The position numbers were made by a program. Shown one piece after another: positions 34,622-52,876 of a stretch of DNA of 64,000 nucleotides. The stretch comes from Octopus vulgaris (lineage: Eukaryota): assembly GCA_951406725.2 (NCBI GenBank), contig OX597817.1, forward strand, positions 81,282,001-81,346,000, given 5' to 3'. The stretch's first letter is position 1, and every line of letters begins with the position of its first letter.

Positions 34622-37600
34622 TTTTTGCGTAATAAGATAAAAAAAACCAACGCTGTGTAGATATTAGAGCATTTATAGATAAAGGGTCTTACAGCTGTTT
34701 CTAGGATATTTATTAATTATATCCCTTCATCGGAGAAGGTGTGAGAGGATAGTTAAGTCATAGTTAGTTTAGATGTGATACAAAATAGAGAGTGAGGTGG
34801 AGGAAAGAAAATAGATGCAAGATATGTATGGGTATTGAAGTTGTAAATCCATTTTTTAGGCATAATGGTATATATACAATATTCCAATATCCTATGAGTA
34901 AAGTCCGAAAGTCCAACAGAGTTTAAAATGAGTCCATCCAAATATAGAGTTTATAAGCAATGTAAGATTCCCTTATGAATGAGATCCAGCAGATTTTTAA
35001 ACTTGAGTGAAAATAGGAACAAATATTGAACTAATCTTTAATTCATACAACTAAAATTATGTTATTTGAAACATTCTGGTTCTGATATTTGTAACAGTAT
35101 TGACGGTGAAATATATCTCCGGATATACGCACTAACTAGTTGTAACCTCTAAAACCAACAAAAATTGAAATTTTCATTATAAACCAACATATATGTTACA
35201 GCTGAGGATAACAATATCTGATAAAGGTGATACATATGGACAACTAAGAAGAATGAGCTGGGTGGGGGACCTTGTTCACATAGACATTATAACGCCAGTA
35301 GCAAGACTCGAACTCCTGATTTGTCGCTTGTTTGTCCGGTGCCCTATCCATTAGGCCAGCCAGAAATGTTTTGACTCATTCTGTTTAAATGGTGAGCAGC
35401 TCCAAAACCTGTAGAATTAATAGAACATTAGTGCATCATTTGTATTTTTACCCTTAGACATTAGATATTGAAAAAGTGAGTAAGCAACAACGTAGAATAA
35501 AAACCGTGTTGGAAACTAGGTTCATAGGGATCTTATATTTCTTATTGTACATATGTTCATTTATAAACGTGATAATTCAAAATGAACCGCGAAAAATACT
35601 CAGTTCAAATTATTATGCAAAGATAAGCAGTTGATTTCTTTTTAAATGTGAAATCCCCCTCCCTTCCAAATAAACTCAAAAGTAAGAAAACTTTCCTCAG
35701 AACCCACTATTATGTTTCTGAAAGGGATAAAGGAGGGGGCAAATCTAAAAATGTATAATAAAAACGCCTGAGATAACAAAACATAGTAGACATACATACA
35801 TATATAGATATATGTATATACACACACACACACTAAACCGTATAGATAGAAGCCTTGACAGCAAAACATAACCTTGACATTGCAATCATGTCAAGCACCA
35901 ATATTTGCAGCGACCGAATATATCTTGGATTTGACTTCAGTACACAACAAGTAAGACACTAAAATATTTCTTAAAGTTTTATTTTGGCTTCCTTTATTTG
36001 TCTTTCTATCGTTTGTTTTATCCGCAGTTAAAGTTGAAACATGATAAAGCTTTATTTATTAAAAAAAAAAATGAAGCCCAAAACGTATTCGAAATGATTC
36101 TGCTGAGTTTTATAAAGTGTTTAACAAGGTTCCTCTTACCGCCTTAACAATATCTACTCCTACTTCCCCCTCTTTCAAAAAAAAAAAAAAAAAACGTTAC
36201 CTCACACTAACATTCTTAATTTATAACAATTCTTCAAATTGTTGTTGTTTTAAAATTTTAAAAGAACAATGATGTTCTTAAAATTCCGATCAAGTACCGA
36301 AAGCAAGCAATTTATGAACTAACCTTCTAATGATTAATTGAAAAAAAAATTTTTTATTAAAAATATATAGCTAACATTAAAAATGAATAAAAGTTGATCT
36401 AGGTATAAAAGCGTTTTATTATTATTTTCGTAACAAAATTTCAGAAGTCGATAATATTTTTATAGTGAAAAAGCCTAACGGTATGGTGGGTGTTAAATTA
36501 TTTCGTGTAGCAAATAAGTGCACTGGACTTCGGACTGAATGTTAAATTTAGTTCAAATACAATCAGTGCCGTCTTTGCATTTCTTCCCTCCGTGATCGAT
36601 AAAATGAGGATCCATCAGTAATATATAATATATATAATAATTTAAATATACATTATATTGGTCGATGTTGTCGACAATGACCCCAAGACTAGACTTCGAA
36701 AGAAATTAAAAATACGGTAAATATAGAATAAAGGGGAAATAAACGCGTATGGATTTAGGACAGGGGGTGCGTTCTCTATTGTCGGAGATTAAAAAAACTT
36801 TAAATTGAGTGGATGAGGTAGGAGAAACAGAGGTAAACAAAAACATTCGAATTTCCGTTTGTATTTTTTGTTCTGATGTAATAGTTTCAGTTTACTTCTT
36901 CAACATTTACTGGATTAATGTTGAAACGTTGTCTTTTTCCTTAAACGCTGTCAAGAAGAAAGTTAGTGTATAAAGTTGTTTGTGGCATATTTTGCACAAA
37001 TGAAATTGAAGAAAATTTGTTTCTGCCAAGGGAGGTCACTCTGGTTTAAGTTTAATTCTCTTCCCGGTGAAAGAAAACGTCTAAAAACAAATATGGCGGA
37101 TTGTTGAATGCTTAAAAAAAAAAAAAAAGGTATGGAAAACAAAAAACTTTTTCTCACGTTCGATTCGATTTTGTGATTCTGTCATGTCGAGTCGCTTATA
37201 ATTTATTCAGCAAGATTTCCTTGCGGTGTTTCTCAAGATTCTGAGAATGTGTGATGTATGCTCTGGCCTGTTGTCCTTATTCGATAGCCACGATGAGCGG
37301 CTTCACAGCGGTGGTGGTCTTCGTCTGGGAAAGAATGAGATTCTGTCTGTGATTCAATACGTAAATATATGGCCTCAGAAACAATGTATGTGCTGCTACA
37401 AAGAATTTAAGAACTTTGAACGATTGAACAATATTGTTCAAATCGTTTTGACTGTTGCGATTCGGCACATTCAGACTCTGCCTGATGACTACGCCAAGGA
37501 AAAAGAAAAACAAGAAAAGCGTGATCATTGTTCTGAAGATGCTGTTTCTGATATTTCTGACAAGAACAAATCGTCAATTGATGGCTTGTCATCGGAAGAA

Positions 37601-50298: not shown

Positions 50299-52876
50299 GT
50301 ATATATATATATGTGTGTATATGTATGTATATATGTATGTATATATATATGTATATATGTATATGTATGTATGTATATAATCTCAAAGTAGGGCAGTGAA
50401 GTGGCAGAATTGGTAGAGTGCTGAATTAAATTTCTTGTACTTAGTTATATTACCTTTAGGTTCTGAGTTCGAATCCCACCAAGGTTGACTTTTCATTCTT
50501 CTTGCATTGATTCCAGTCATGAACTGGAGTCAGTTAATTCGAGTAAGTCGGTCCCTCTTCCATAATCTTTGGCTTTGCCACCATTGTTAGAAGTCAATGT
50601 TTATCTGTCAGTATATGGCACCTTTATTTTTCAACCTGGAAATAATTTGCACAGCTTTATTAAACGATTAGATAGCAAAAAAAAAAAAAAATGTTAAAGA
50701 ATTAAGACTGTTATATTGAATTTAGTGGAATAGGATGCCTTTTGCAACAAGTATTCATGTTTAAGAAAAAGAGAGAGAAAGAAAGAGAAAGGGAAAAAAA
50801 TACCAAAATATTTGAAAAATACCAGTTCTTTTATTTTATTCCATATGTATATTTTTGTTTGATTTTCTTTTCTCTTGTGTTCTTGTTTATTCGTGAAACA
50901 TTGTGTTCAATGAAAGTATAACTATTGACAAACAAGAGAAAGATGAAAAATAGAAGACAAAAAAAAACCAAAAAAAAATACCCATACCAAATATAAAGAC
51001 AAGAATTGAATACAAAGAAACTGTTTTATTAAAAAAAAAAATAGAGAGGTAGACATTGTTATGAGTCTTTCTCCATTTGCTATGTAAGATGAAGAGTGAG
51101 AGAAAGAAAGAGTGAACGGAAGAATGAGTGAAAGGATGAGAGAAAGATAAAGAGAGAAATTCTAAATTAATAAATAAACTTTAAAAAAAAAGATACTTTC
51201 CATTAAATAATTACATTGATTTCATGATATTTCATTAAAAAGAAATGTTGAAAATATCAGCTTGCTGTTTTGTTTTATGTTTTTCTTCTCAGGTAACTAC
51301 TTTGAACAAAATAGATGCATTATTCATATTTTTCTGTATTTAAGATATTGCTTCTGTCTACCACAGCCACCACCATCATCATTATAATGATATGCAGCTG
51401 CAAAGCAATTATGGACTTTGTCATTGATGTTGATGTTTCTTATTACAGTAACAGTATTTTGCTCAAAGTTTGAGCGAGGATTGTAGGACAGGGGTATGTA
51501 TTTTTCCTGTTATTAGCTATAATGCCAGCAGCTTGTCATGTGGTCAGTATCAAGGAAAATATTTTTGTAGTTTCAAGCTTTTATCTCTTATCTACTAATG
51601 TTGTCTTGAGCCTTCATAAATGATATAATGTAAAACACCAACACTAGAGAATTAAATGTGGATATTCAAACTGCTAGATTACCAGACAACCAGTTGAGCT
51701 GGGAAATTGTTCATATCCTGTTATCATAGCTCTGTGTAGTATCTGTGGTTCAAACACTTTGGTGGACTTGGTAATTTGAGAGCTAATTGTAACACAGGCA
51801 AGGAACAACCAATGTTGCTTACAACAACAATGTAAAATCAACAAGCTACTTTGTTGCTCAGGTCTTCAGTTTAATTCCACCCTGAGAATAGATCAGTCCC
51901 CTACTCTCCTACCTAGGGAAACATTTGTCTTGCCTTTATAGCAGTAGACTGCAAAATTTCCAGGTTCTGTTTTCACATGCTCTTGTGACTTGAGCTTTTC
52001 ATTAGCAAGTCAACAATAATTGGACCAGATGTGTTTATTGTAAATACTAGCACTATTTCTCCACACTGACATCTTGATCCTCCATAAACTTATGATGATA
52101 ATCAACCCTGAACCAGTGCACTTAACGGACTGGGTAGGCACACAAACGGCTGGGTACTGGTTTCTGTCTCCATGGTCCAAAGCAGGGCATTTTTTAAAAG
52201 AGATTTTAGCAATTAGCATCAGTATATTCACATATAGAGATAATAAAGATGAATTTTGCTTTTCCTACTATCAATATAGTGTCTCTGTTGAGAACTAAGA
52301 AACAGGTTTTATTAATGGATTTATCAAAGATATCAATACAAAAACAGTTCTGTTTTTTCTGCAAGGGGATGGACTATTGAAGTACAAAGGTGTGTAAATA
52401 ATGATACTGTAACTTTCAGGAATGGCCATGTTGTACTGTTAGTAGTATCTACAGTGATCATGGCATTGCTTGCATTGTACTTTGCCAAGCTGGCAAAGGT
52501 TAGAAAGGAGGTGTAGTGAGATCTTTTATTGACAAAACTGAAGTCAAAATGTAGATATGGTTAATTCTGATGGTTTAGTGACAGCTCAGAGAATGAACTA
52601 TTTGCTTTAATGCTGAGTATCATAATGATAATTAGAATTCTAATGGAATCTTTTTCTTGTCAATGTTGTCCCAATGAGATCAATTTTATTGGTGTTTTTT
52701 AATATACTCTTTTTTTTGTGCTAAAACATTGGGCTTTATACAGTATGAGATATGATGTTTACATCCCTACCACTGATCATGTATTATAGCAAATTATGTT
52801 GAAATTAAATAGTGTAGAACATTCTGTTTATATTATATTATATTGTAAATAACTAAAATGATATATGATGTGTATG

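What the first reader, a model, noticed from the sequence alone, without database searches (positions are those of the whole stretch)
35888..51300. Giant intronless USP34 apparently nested, same-strand, in intron 1 of xylulokinase
Seen: a 21-codon exon ATG..IYLGFDFSTQQ|gtaaga at 35888-35950, absent from the ORF track, followed 1.3 kb later on the same strand by the complete USP34 ORF. Known: LG(W/F)DFSTQQ is the xylulokinase N-terminus, and as I recall vertebrate XYLB also has its first intron right after STQQ. Inference: since no intact XYLB exon 2 precedes USP34, XYLB transcripts would have to read through and splice out about 14 kb of another gene, including its poly(A) signals. Same-strand nesting of such a large conserved gene is unusual and would couple the two genes through competition between splicing and polyadenylation. 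Caveat: I found no further XYLB exon within the window.
Basis: partly seen in the sequence, partly recalled or inferred. Interest (0 to 1): 0.85.

Follow-up and report, generated by a model that had tools for sequence, protein, structure and literature searches.

The report
Xylulokinase first exon beside intronless USP34
A short stretch that looks like the first exon of a sugar kinase gene sits 1.3 kb upstream of a complete, intron-free copy of the giant USP34 gene on the same strand, but nothing in this window shows that the kinase gene continues beyond USP34.

Summary
ATG 35888 to 35950 reads MSSTNICSDRIYLGFDFSTQQ and is followed at once by GTAAGA. After 1,296 nt, on the same strand, ATG 37247 opens an uninterrupted 3,760-codon ORF ending at TAA 48527-48529. 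This ORF is a full-length USP34 orthologue: it has the UCH domain and DUF3517, is 61-67% identical to the mollusc USP34 proteins that align over 75-100% of it, and its N- and C-termini match theirs.

Both 5' ends lie in the strongest CpG island of the window (about 35.8-38.2 kb). The single-coding-exon state is shared by unnamed close relatives, whereas human USP34 has 80 exons.

The nesting claim is not shown. I found no further xylulokinase (FGGY) exon anywhere in the 64 kb. No tool could fetch a eukaryotic XYLB, so the identity of the exon rests on a recalled 9-residue motif plus chance controls.

Same-orientation nesting in 5' introns is common in mammals, so the arrangement would be ordinary even if true. 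The intron-free 11.3 kb USP34 coding sequence, possibly a retrogene, is the more notable feature.

Best reading (0.5): USP34 lies in XYLB intron 1. Rivals are an orphan exon or an exon co-opted by USP34. Interest is modest.

The parts
35888..35950 (+). Xylulokinase (XYLB)-type first coding exon: 21 codons, MSSTNICSDRIYLGFDFSTQQ, phase 0 at its 3' end
   Evidence: Sequence and translation. The motif is unique in six frames and absent from 200 shuffles. The region 35000-37250 is not repeated elsewhere in the window. Assignment to the family rests on a recalled motif; there was no database hit.
35951..35956 (+). Splice donor GTAAGA directly after the last Gln codon
   Evidence: Read directly. Read-through gives VRH and then a stop.
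35800..38200 (.). CpG island, the strongest in the window, spanning the XYLB-like exon, the 1.3 kb spacer and the first ~1 kb of the USP34 coding sequence
   Evidence: CpG observed/expected is 0.97-1.70 in 400-base windows from 35801 to 38200. The window median is 0.33 and the overall value 0.38.
37202..37246 (+). 15 open codons in the USP34 frame ahead of its ATG, holding two acceptor-like AGs (exon starts at 37211 and 37238), both at codon boundaries
   Evidence: Use of these sites in splicing is not shown.
37247..48529 (+). USP34 orthologue: single uninterrupted coding sequence of 3,760 codons plus TAA
43442..44473 (+). USP (UCH) catalytic domain, with Cys box NLGATCY (from 43454) and His box GGHYY (from 44249)
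   Evidence: Pfam PF00443 E=1.2e-48; motifs located.
44882..45730 (+). DUF3517 domain
   Evidence: Pfam PF12030 E=3.2e-17 at residues 2553-2835 of P0001.
48989..49119 (+). First two AATAAA hexamers after the stop (48989 and 49114): candidate USP34 poly(A) signals
   Evidence: Their use is not shown. Further AATAAA/ATTAAA hexamers lie at 50425, 50659, 51028, 51169, 51202, 51234, 51651, 52242 and 52804.
49660..50380 (.). (TA/TG)n microsatellite of about 720 bases downstream of USP34; it accounts for the multi-frame ORFs at 49.6-50.4 kb

Best explanation
The locus holds two 5' ends on the + strand inside one CpG island of about 2.4 kb.

1. A genuine genomic first coding exon of a xylulokinase (XYLB-type) gene lies at 35888-35950 and ends in a strong phase-0 donor.
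2. 1,296 nt downstream lies a full-length USP34 orthologue whose whole 11.3 kb coding sequence is one exon.

The most economical reading is a host/nested pair. USP34 lies inside the first intron of XYLB. That intron would then be longer than 28 kb, running from 35951 to beyond 64000.

XYLB pre-mRNA would have to be elongated through the USP34 promoter, gene body and poly(A) signals before exon 1 could be spliced to a distant exon 2. XYLB output would therefore depend on how often polymerases that start at its promoter ignore the USP34 3'-end signals.

The missing introns of USP34 suggest an RNA-mediated origin, either a retrocopy or intron loss through cDNA. That would explain how so large a gene came to sit in a 5' intron next to another gene's promoter.

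Shown: both sequence features, USP34 orthology, intron-free coding sequence, the CpG island, and the absence of further XYLB exons in the window.

Inferred: all statements about transcription, splicing and origin.
For: - The exon-like unit has an ATG, A at -3, the motif and GTAAGA at the point where homology ends. A processed pseudogene would run straight on into exon 2 residues instead.
- The motif is not chance. It occurs once in the window's six frames and in 0 of 200 shuffles. Only 5 of 21 pattern matches in 596 Gb of prokaryotic DNA were in frame. By my arithmetic that gives an expectation of about 5e-7 for a 64 kb window.
- The flank 35000-37250 is single-copy in the window, so the exon is not part of a repeat seen here.
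- It sits at the 5' edge of the strongest CpG island in the window, where a first exon is expected.
- No FGGY exon lies in the 1.3 kb before USP34. The 20 ORFs from 35953-37223 are among the 258 scanned with 0 FGGY hits.
- USP34 is complete.
- Intron-free state in relatives: the out-of-frame tails of 4 of 4 genomic ORF fragments from unnamed close relatives (P0138, P0226, P0227, P0228; 82-97% identical) continue on collinear window DNA in another frame. Two were shown by tblastn and two by eye. The breaks are therefore frame changes, not introns.
- Human USP34 has 80 exons (PMC13432289, figure legend read).
- 10 mollusc hits are named 'isoform X2' to 'X4', which implies spliced genes there.
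- Nested genes favour 5' introns of their hosts (PMC11694760).
Against: - No XYLB exon 2 or later was found in the 28 kb downstream. 0 of 258 + strand ORFs of >=20 aa matched FGGY_N or FGGY_C at E<=1. No recalled XYLB motif appeared in any frame.
- No FGGY hit appeared among a further 431 ORFs of >=45 aa on both strands. For A3 only 25 of 77 families were displayed.
- These scans have limited power. Pfam does not detect the 21-residue exon itself.
- The XYLB assignment rests on nine residues and on recall. PDB gave 0 hits at E<=10. The representatives search gave 4 unrelated repeat proteins. The atlas gave nothing.
- No transcript data were available.
- USP34 is followed by several AATAAA/ATTAAA hexamers, which would tend to end same-strand read-through.
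- The CpG island could serve USP34 alone.
- No retroposition hallmark was found. The best direct repeat between the flanks is an 11-mer, about what chance gives, and no poly(A) tract lies behind a signal at a defined 3' end.
Confidence: 0.5

Rival explanations
1. Orphan or relic exon. The 21-codon unit is a leftover or duplicated 5' end of XYLB. The working XYLB gene, if kept, lies elsewhere with its own exon 1, and the CpG island now serves USP34 only.
For: No other XYLB exon is present in 64 kb. USP34 starts only 1.3 kb away inside the same CpG island. Strong same-strand poly(A) hexamers follow USP34.
Against: ATG, open frame, motif and consensus donor are all intact, which is not expected of an old relic. 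The flank is not repeated in the window. Introns longer than 28 kb are plausible in a large, repeat-rich genome such as this window suggests (inference).
Confidence: 0.2
2. Co-opted 5' exon. Transcripts that start at the XYLB promoter splice from 35950 into the USP34 leader. The XYLB exon then acts as an alternative first exon of USP34, as retrogenes in host introns often borrow host promoters and 5' exons. This may occur alongside normal XYLB splicing.
For: The donor is phase 0. Two acceptor-like sites just upstream of the USP34 ATG (exon starts at 37211 and 37238) lie at codon boundaries in the 15 open codons before the ATG, so a fusion would stay in frame. 37238 has the highest pyrimidine score (0.79) of the AG sites ranked in 35990-37300 (top 20 printed). 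The CpG island is shared. AmphiSYCP1 is a precedent for a retrogene that co-opted a neighbour's promoter and built a new 5' UTR (PMC5803294, abstract read).
Against: Both sites have weak features (AAG at 37238; a pyrimidine score of only 0.58 at 37211). Each AG has a one in three chance of being in frame. USP34 begins at MCDVCSG in 10 of 11 homologues inspected and in the relative fragment P0235, so no N-terminal extension is conserved. No transcript data were available. I did not build or search the joined product.
Confidence: 0.15
3. Assembly misjoin. The XYLB 5' end and USP34 are not neighbours in the real chromosome.
For: None was found. I raise it only because the downstream XYLB exons are missing and because close relatives' contigs carry many frame changes.
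Against: The window has no N or gap. The CpG island runs smoothly across the spacer. There is no repeat or microsatellite block between 35951 and 37246 at which a join would be expected.
Confidence: 0.05
4. Chance resemblance. The 21-codon unit is not related to xylulokinase.
For: No database search returned a xylulokinase.
Against: The expected number of chance matches to the motif in 64 kb is about 5e-7 (my arithmetic). There were 0 matches in 200 shuffles. In addition there is an ATG 12 codons upstream and a consensus donor exactly at the end of the motif.
Confidence: 0.03

Closest known systems
Host/nested gene pairs of animals (surveyed for mouse and human in PMC11694760; passages read)
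   Same: One gene lies wholly within an intron of another. There is a preference for the most 5' introns. Nested genes interact with host pre-mRNA processing, including premature polyadenylation of the host upstream of the nested gene.
   Different: Here only the upstream host exon is seen, so the pair is not demonstrated. The nested gene would be unusually large (11.3 kb of coding sequence). Its start lies only 1.3 kb from the host's first exon, inside the same CpG island.
Retrogene replacement, e.g. amphioxus SYCP1 (PMC5803294; abstract and outline read)
   Same: A gene that is multi-exonic in most animals is present here as a single coding exon, next to another gene's promoter region.
   Different: AmphiSYCP1 has about 3.2 kb of coding exon, whereas this one has 11.3 kb. 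Loss of a multi-exon parent copy, a poly(A) remnant and target-site duplications are not shown here. Stepwise or cDNA-mediated intron loss in place is equally open.
USP34 / puffyeye deubiquitinases
   Same: Full-length collinearity, UCH domain with Cys and His boxes, DUF3517, and conserved N- and C-termini.
   Different: The coding sequence has no intron, against 80 exons in human (PMC13432289, figure legend). An acidic, low-complexity insert lies around residues 470-1000 (read).
Eukaryotic xylulokinase (human XYLB, yeast Xks1; FGGY family)
   Different: Only 21 residues are present. No FGGY domain was detectable.

Membership tests
Xylulokinase (XYLB, FGGY family) gene | N-terminal phosphate-binding motif of the eukaryotic subfamily, LG(F/W)D(F/L)STQQ | tested here: inconclusive
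   The residues are present at 35924-35950. That this motif defines the subfamily is recalled, not taken from a call. A string search of papers found 0.
Xylulokinase (XYLB, FGGY family) gene | FGGY_N and FGGY_C domains encoded by further exons on the same strand | tested here: not met
   0 of 258 downstream + strand ORFs and none among 431 further ORFs on both strands (25 of 77 families shown for A3). Six-frame motif scans were negative. This holds within this window only, and sensitivity for short exons is limited.
Xylulokinase (XYLB, FGGY family) gene | Sequence similarity to known XYLB proteins | not testable with these tools
   The exon is below the 40 aa minimum of the search for homologous proteins. 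PDB gave 0 hits. The representatives search returned only repeat proteins. The atlas gave nothing. No prokaryotic gene with the motif was fetched.
USP34 orthologue | USP catalytic domain with Cys and His boxes | tested here: met
   PF00443 E=1.2e-48; NLGATCY and GGHYY present.
USP34 orthologue | Full-length collinearity and best hits to USP34/puf | tested here: met
   Of the 120 hits listed, all that carry a functional name are named USP34, puf or ubiquitinyl hydrolase 1. The best are molluscs at 61-67% identity over 75-100% of the query. The termini align. DUF3517 is present.
Host/nested gene pair | Host exons on both sides of the nested gene | tested here: not met
   Only the upstream exon was found. 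Nothing was found in 48530-64000. The scaffold beyond 64000 was not available.
Host/nested gene pair | Host transcripts that splice across the nested gene | not testable with these tools
Retrogene | Intron-free coding sequence where orthologues are multi-exonic | tested here: met
   One ORF of 3,760 codons. Human has 80 exons (PMC13432289). 10 mollusc hits are named as isoforms. The exon maps of molluscs themselves were not seen.
Retrogene | Poly(A) remnant and target-site duplication at the borders | tested here: not met
   The best flank repeat is an 11-mer, at the chance level. A-rich tracts are present but none lies behind a signal at a clear 3' end. Old insertions lose these marks.
Retrogene | A multi-exon parent copy, present or demonstrably lost | not testable with these tools
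   No eukaryotic genome collection was available.

The most novel reading that the evidence does not exclude
USP34 of this lineage is an 11.3 kb retrogene that replaced an ancestral gene of many exons. It inserted in sense orientation into the first intron of XYLB, 1.3 kb from the XYLB start, and took over the XYLB CpG-island promoter. Every XYLB mRNA must now escape the USP34 poly(A) sites, and some USP34 mRNAs start with the XYLB first exon. This would be among the longest functional retrogenes described, and it would couple a metabolic enzyme and a deubiquitinase through competition between splicing and polyadenylation.
Probability: 0.15. Interest if true: 0.6.

Novelty: new member of a known kind. 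Interest (0 to 1): 0.3.

Why it matters
If the nesting is real, this is a compact natural case for studying how a host gene is transcribed through a very long, highly conserved same-strand gene that begins almost at the host's own promoter.

The firmer and less expected point is that a gene split into 80 exons in human exists here as one 11.3 kb coding exon. That bears on how long an RNA-mediated gene copy, or wholesale intron loss, can be.

Neither point changes a general principle. Same-orientation nested genes in 5' introns are already known to be common.

Tried and rejected
Attempts to test the 21-residue exon against real xylulokinases:
- The PDB sequence search gave 0 hits at E<=10.
- Pfam gave nothing for the exon or for the 38 aa stop-to-stop ORF.
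- The representatives search, with a 30-residue in-frame stretch, gave 4 hits, all repeat proteins without the motif.
- The protein atlas gave no usable hit.
- A string search of papers for the motif gave 0 papers.
- I scanned genome contigs with the back-translated motif, hoping for a prokaryotic xylulokinase of the eukaryotic type to use as a bridge. It returned 21 loci, 5 in frame. None sat at the start of a kinase-sized ORF or continued like an FGGY kinase by eye. These were not scanned with Pfam.

Other leads that came to nothing:
- GGNPGFF at 5183-5197 (+) matched one loose motif. It is a 19-base stretch between cag and gtaat with no other support, so I rejected it.
- A strong acceptor at 36027|36028 would give LKLKHDKALFIKKKNEAQ... 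in phase. This is A-rich, not XYLB-like and has no Pfam hit, so I rejected it as exon 2.
- A target-site duplication search found chance-level matches only.
- Rfam and the tRNA scan found nothing in the window.

Literature searches:
- XYLB with USP34: 0 papers.
- USP34 with intronless: 3 papers, none relevant by title or abstract start.
- Retrogene with cephalopod: 16 papers, 10 listed, none on USP34 by title.

Steps not taken:
- I did not read the exon through its stops with a custom code to reach 40 aa.
- I did not build or search the joined XYLB-exon-1-USP34 product.
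Full report
**What is in the sequence**

At 35888 an ATG with A at -3 opens 21 codons, MSSTNICSDRIYLGFDFSTQQ. The last codon ends at 35950 and is followed at once by GTAAGA. Read-through gives three more residues and then a stop. An in-frame TAG lies 14 codons upstream of the ATG.

On the same strand, after 1,296 nt, an ATG at 37247 opens 3,760 codons that run without a stop to TAA at 48527-48529.

**The large ORF is a complete USP34**

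- Pfam finds the USP catalytic domain (PF00443, E=1.2e-48, residues 2073-2416 of P0001) and DUF3517 (E=3.2e-17).
- The Cys box NLGATCY and the His box GGHYY are present.
- Of 2,184 candidates scored, 317 had E<=0.001. All of the 120 listed that carry a functional name are named USP34, puf or ubiquitinyl hydrolase 1. The best are molluscs:
  - Sinanodonta, 62% identity over 83% of the query;
  - Solemya, 67% over 75%;
  - Gigantopelta, 61% over 100%.
- The ORF's Met (MCDVCSG...) aligns with the first residues of 10 of the 11 homologues I inspected. The exception is P0019, which begins differently. The last residues align with their C-termini.
- So nothing is missing at either end, and the coding sequence has no intron.
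- The exact protein is not in the 15-billion collection. No named close relative appeared.

**The intron-free state is shared by close relatives**

A search among shorter proteins (144 with E<=0.001 among 8,000 candidates, 120 listed) found fragments from unnamed sources (identities below):

| Fragment | Length | Identity | Source noted |
|---|---|---|---|
| P0138 | 905 aa | 90% | contig length listed as 526,320 bases |
| P0226 | 299 aa | 96.5% | contig length listed as 526,320 bases |
| P0227 | 320 aa | 92% | contig length listed as 526,320 bases |
| P0228 | 463 aa | 82% | contig of 489,977 bases |
| P0128 | 1238 aa | 80% | short contig |
| P0169 | 769 aa | 72% | short contig |
| P0235 | 288 aa | 85% | short contig |

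- Each of the four genomic fragments ends in a tail that does not match USP34.
- For P0138 and P0228, tblastn places the tail on the window DNA directly after the matched part, in another frame.
- For P0226 and P0227 the same is visible by eye.
- So 4 of 4 breaks are frame changes on collinear DNA, not introns.
- I cannot tell whether these are assembly errors or real lesions.
- By contrast, the human USP34 coding sequence is divided across 80 exons (PMC13432289, one figure legend read).
- Ten mollusc hits are named 'isoform X2' to 'X4', which implies spliced genes. I could not see any mollusc exon map.

**The 21-codon unit**

That is recall, not a test.

No tool could bring a real XYLB sequence into the session:

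- the exon is under the 40-residue minimum of the word-indexed search;
- the PDB search gave no hit at E<=10;
- Pfam does not see 21 residues;
- a full HMMER pass over 1.84 billion representatives with a 30-residue in-frame stretch returned 4 repeat proteins without the motif;
- the atlas returned nothing;
- the motif strings occur in 0 papers of the library.

What I could test is chance:

- The motif occurs once in the six frames of the window and in 0 of 200 shuffles.
- A scan of 596 billion bases of bacterial and archaeal genomes with the back-translated pattern gave 21 matches, of which 5 encode LGFD[FL]STQQ in frame. By eye, none is at the start of a kinase-like ORF.
- That is about 4e-12 per codon position, or about 5e-7 expected in this window (my arithmetic, on prokaryotic composition).
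- Added to this are the ATG 12 codons upstream and a consensus donor exactly where the motif ends.

Because similarity stops at a donor rather than running on into exon 2 residues, this is a genomic exon and not a processed copy. The 2.25 kb around it is not repeated elsewhere in the window.

**Is USP34 nested in XYLB?**

This needs XYLB exons downstream of USP34, and I found none.

- On the + strand in 35951-37225 and 48530-64000 there are 275 stop-to-stop ORFs of at least 20 aa. I dropped 17 as low-complexity (three residues making up 60% or more).
- I scanned the other 258 with Pfam. None matched FGGY_N or FGGY_C at E<=1; the best unrelated E-value was 0.019.
- Of 573 ORFs of at least 45 aa in all six frames, I dropped 47 as low-complexity. 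I also dropped 95 that lie on the + strand from 35951 on (already covered, or USP34 itself).
- I scanned the remaining 431. No FGGY family was listed. For the first batch only 25 of 77 families were displayed.
- Recalled XYLB motifs (GQQHG, GTSDT, TGDN, GGAS.N and looser exon 2 patterns) are absent from all six frames outside the exon.
- Two apparent leads, GGNPGFF at 5183 and an LK-starting ORF behind a strong acceptor at 36028, do not hold up.

These scans are weak for short exons, since Pfam misses exon 1 itself. The scaffold beyond 64000 was not available. The result is therefore 'not shown', not 'refuted'. If the gene continues, intron 1 exceeds 28 kb.

**Promoter context**

- CpG observed/expected is 0.38 over the window (median 0.33).
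- It rises to 0.97-1.70 in 400-base windows from 35801 to 38200. This is the strongest island in the window.
- The island starts at the XYLB-like exon and covers the spacer and the first kilobase of USP34.
- Both 5' ends therefore sit in one probably unmethylated promoter region. This fits two closely spaced start sites, or one promoter region used by both.
- Fifteen open codons precede the USP34 ATG and hold two acceptor-like AGs at codon boundaries (exon starts at 37211 and 37238).
- A splice from the phase-0 donor at 35950 would therefore stay in frame. This is only a possibility.

**Origin of the intron-free gene**

- No target-site duplication is detectable. The best match between the flanks is an 11-mer, at the chance level.
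- No poly(A) tract sits behind a signal at a clear 3' boundary.
- AATAAA hexamers at 48989 and 49114 are candidate USP34 signals.
- Retroposition and cDNA-mediated intron loss both remain open.
- Amphioxus SYCP1 is a described case of a single-exon retrogene (about 3.2 kb) that replaced a multi-exon parent and co-opted a neighbour's promoter (PMC5803294, abstract read).

**How unusual would nesting be?**

- host/nested pairs cover over a tenth of genes;
- nested genes prefer the most 5' introns;
- same and opposite orientation are 'broadly similar', with only a slight bias to opposite;
- expression of nested genes has been linked to premature polyadenylation of hosts.

Another paper on interference by nested genes (PMC3192792) I saw only in the search listing. 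Its particular features would be the size of the nested gene and its closeness to the host promoter.

**Verdict**

- USP34 complete and intron-free: supported.
- The exon being of XYLB type: very likely, but resting on recall plus chance controls.
- Nesting: plausible (0.5) but unproven.
- Rivals: an orphan exon (0.2), co-option of the exon by USP34 (0.15), a misjoin (0.05) and chance (0.03).

**What stayed unchecked**

- Any eukaryotic genome, transcript data and mollusc gene structures.
- The closed collections metagenome contigs and viral contigs.
- Paper supplements.

Noticed in passing
window 7231-15017, minus strand (ORFs 7231-7428, 9720-9911, 11487-11669, 13007-13180, 14595-15017): A multi-exon C2H2 zinc-finger gene on the opposite strand upstream of the finding. 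Five separate ORFs match zf-C2H2 (best E=3.1e-16). Its 5' end should lie at higher coordinates, perhaps at the CpG-rich spots at 19-21 or 24-26 kb.
   Followed up: partly
window 133-675 (-) and 1503-2444 (+): Reverse-transcriptase fragments (RVT_1, E=1.8e-11 and 2.8e-06). These are remains of retroelements at the left end of the window.
   Followed up: partly
window 57581-58402 (+), with CpG-rich 58.0-59.2 kb: Two adjacent ORFs (101 and 151 aa) with a weak GIY-YIG match (E=0.042), next to a stretch with CpG o/e about 1.5. This looks like a fairly young mobile element.
   Followed up: partly
window 15122-15403 (-), 23696-24025 (+), 29711-29941 (+), 31930-32151 (+), 34068-34281 (+), 56264-56514 (-), 60045-60254 (-), 63103-63399 (+): At least eight copies of one short interspersed repeat. 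It is recognisable in ORF listings by the recurring translation ...HSQG.GRPEAI.EDTCPRCHAVGLN... No tRNA or Rfam match was found in the window.
   Followed up: no
proteins P0138, P0226, P0227, P0228 (unnamed sources): In two genome contigs of close relatives the same USP34 reading frame is broken by frame changes at four or more places. These are either indel-rich assemblies or decaying copies.
   Followed up: partly
window 19000-21000, 24000-26000, 53000-54000: Further CpG-rich stretches (o/e 0.7-1.0, against a median of 0.33) with no recognised gene feature. At 24.7-25.3 kb there are long ORFs in several frames made of simple repeats.
   Followed up: no
window 50390-50700 (+): A stretch that looks tRNA-derived by eye (...ggttcgaatccc...), followed by ATTAAA and a run of 15 A. 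It resembles a retroposed short element just after the microsatellite. ARAGORN and Rfam do not call it.
   Followed up: partly
Homologous-protein results: No named protein closer than about 71% identity to this USP34 was returned. The only closer relatives (72-97%) come from unnamed contigs. The class of mollusc the window comes from could therefore not be fixed from these searches.
   Followed up: no
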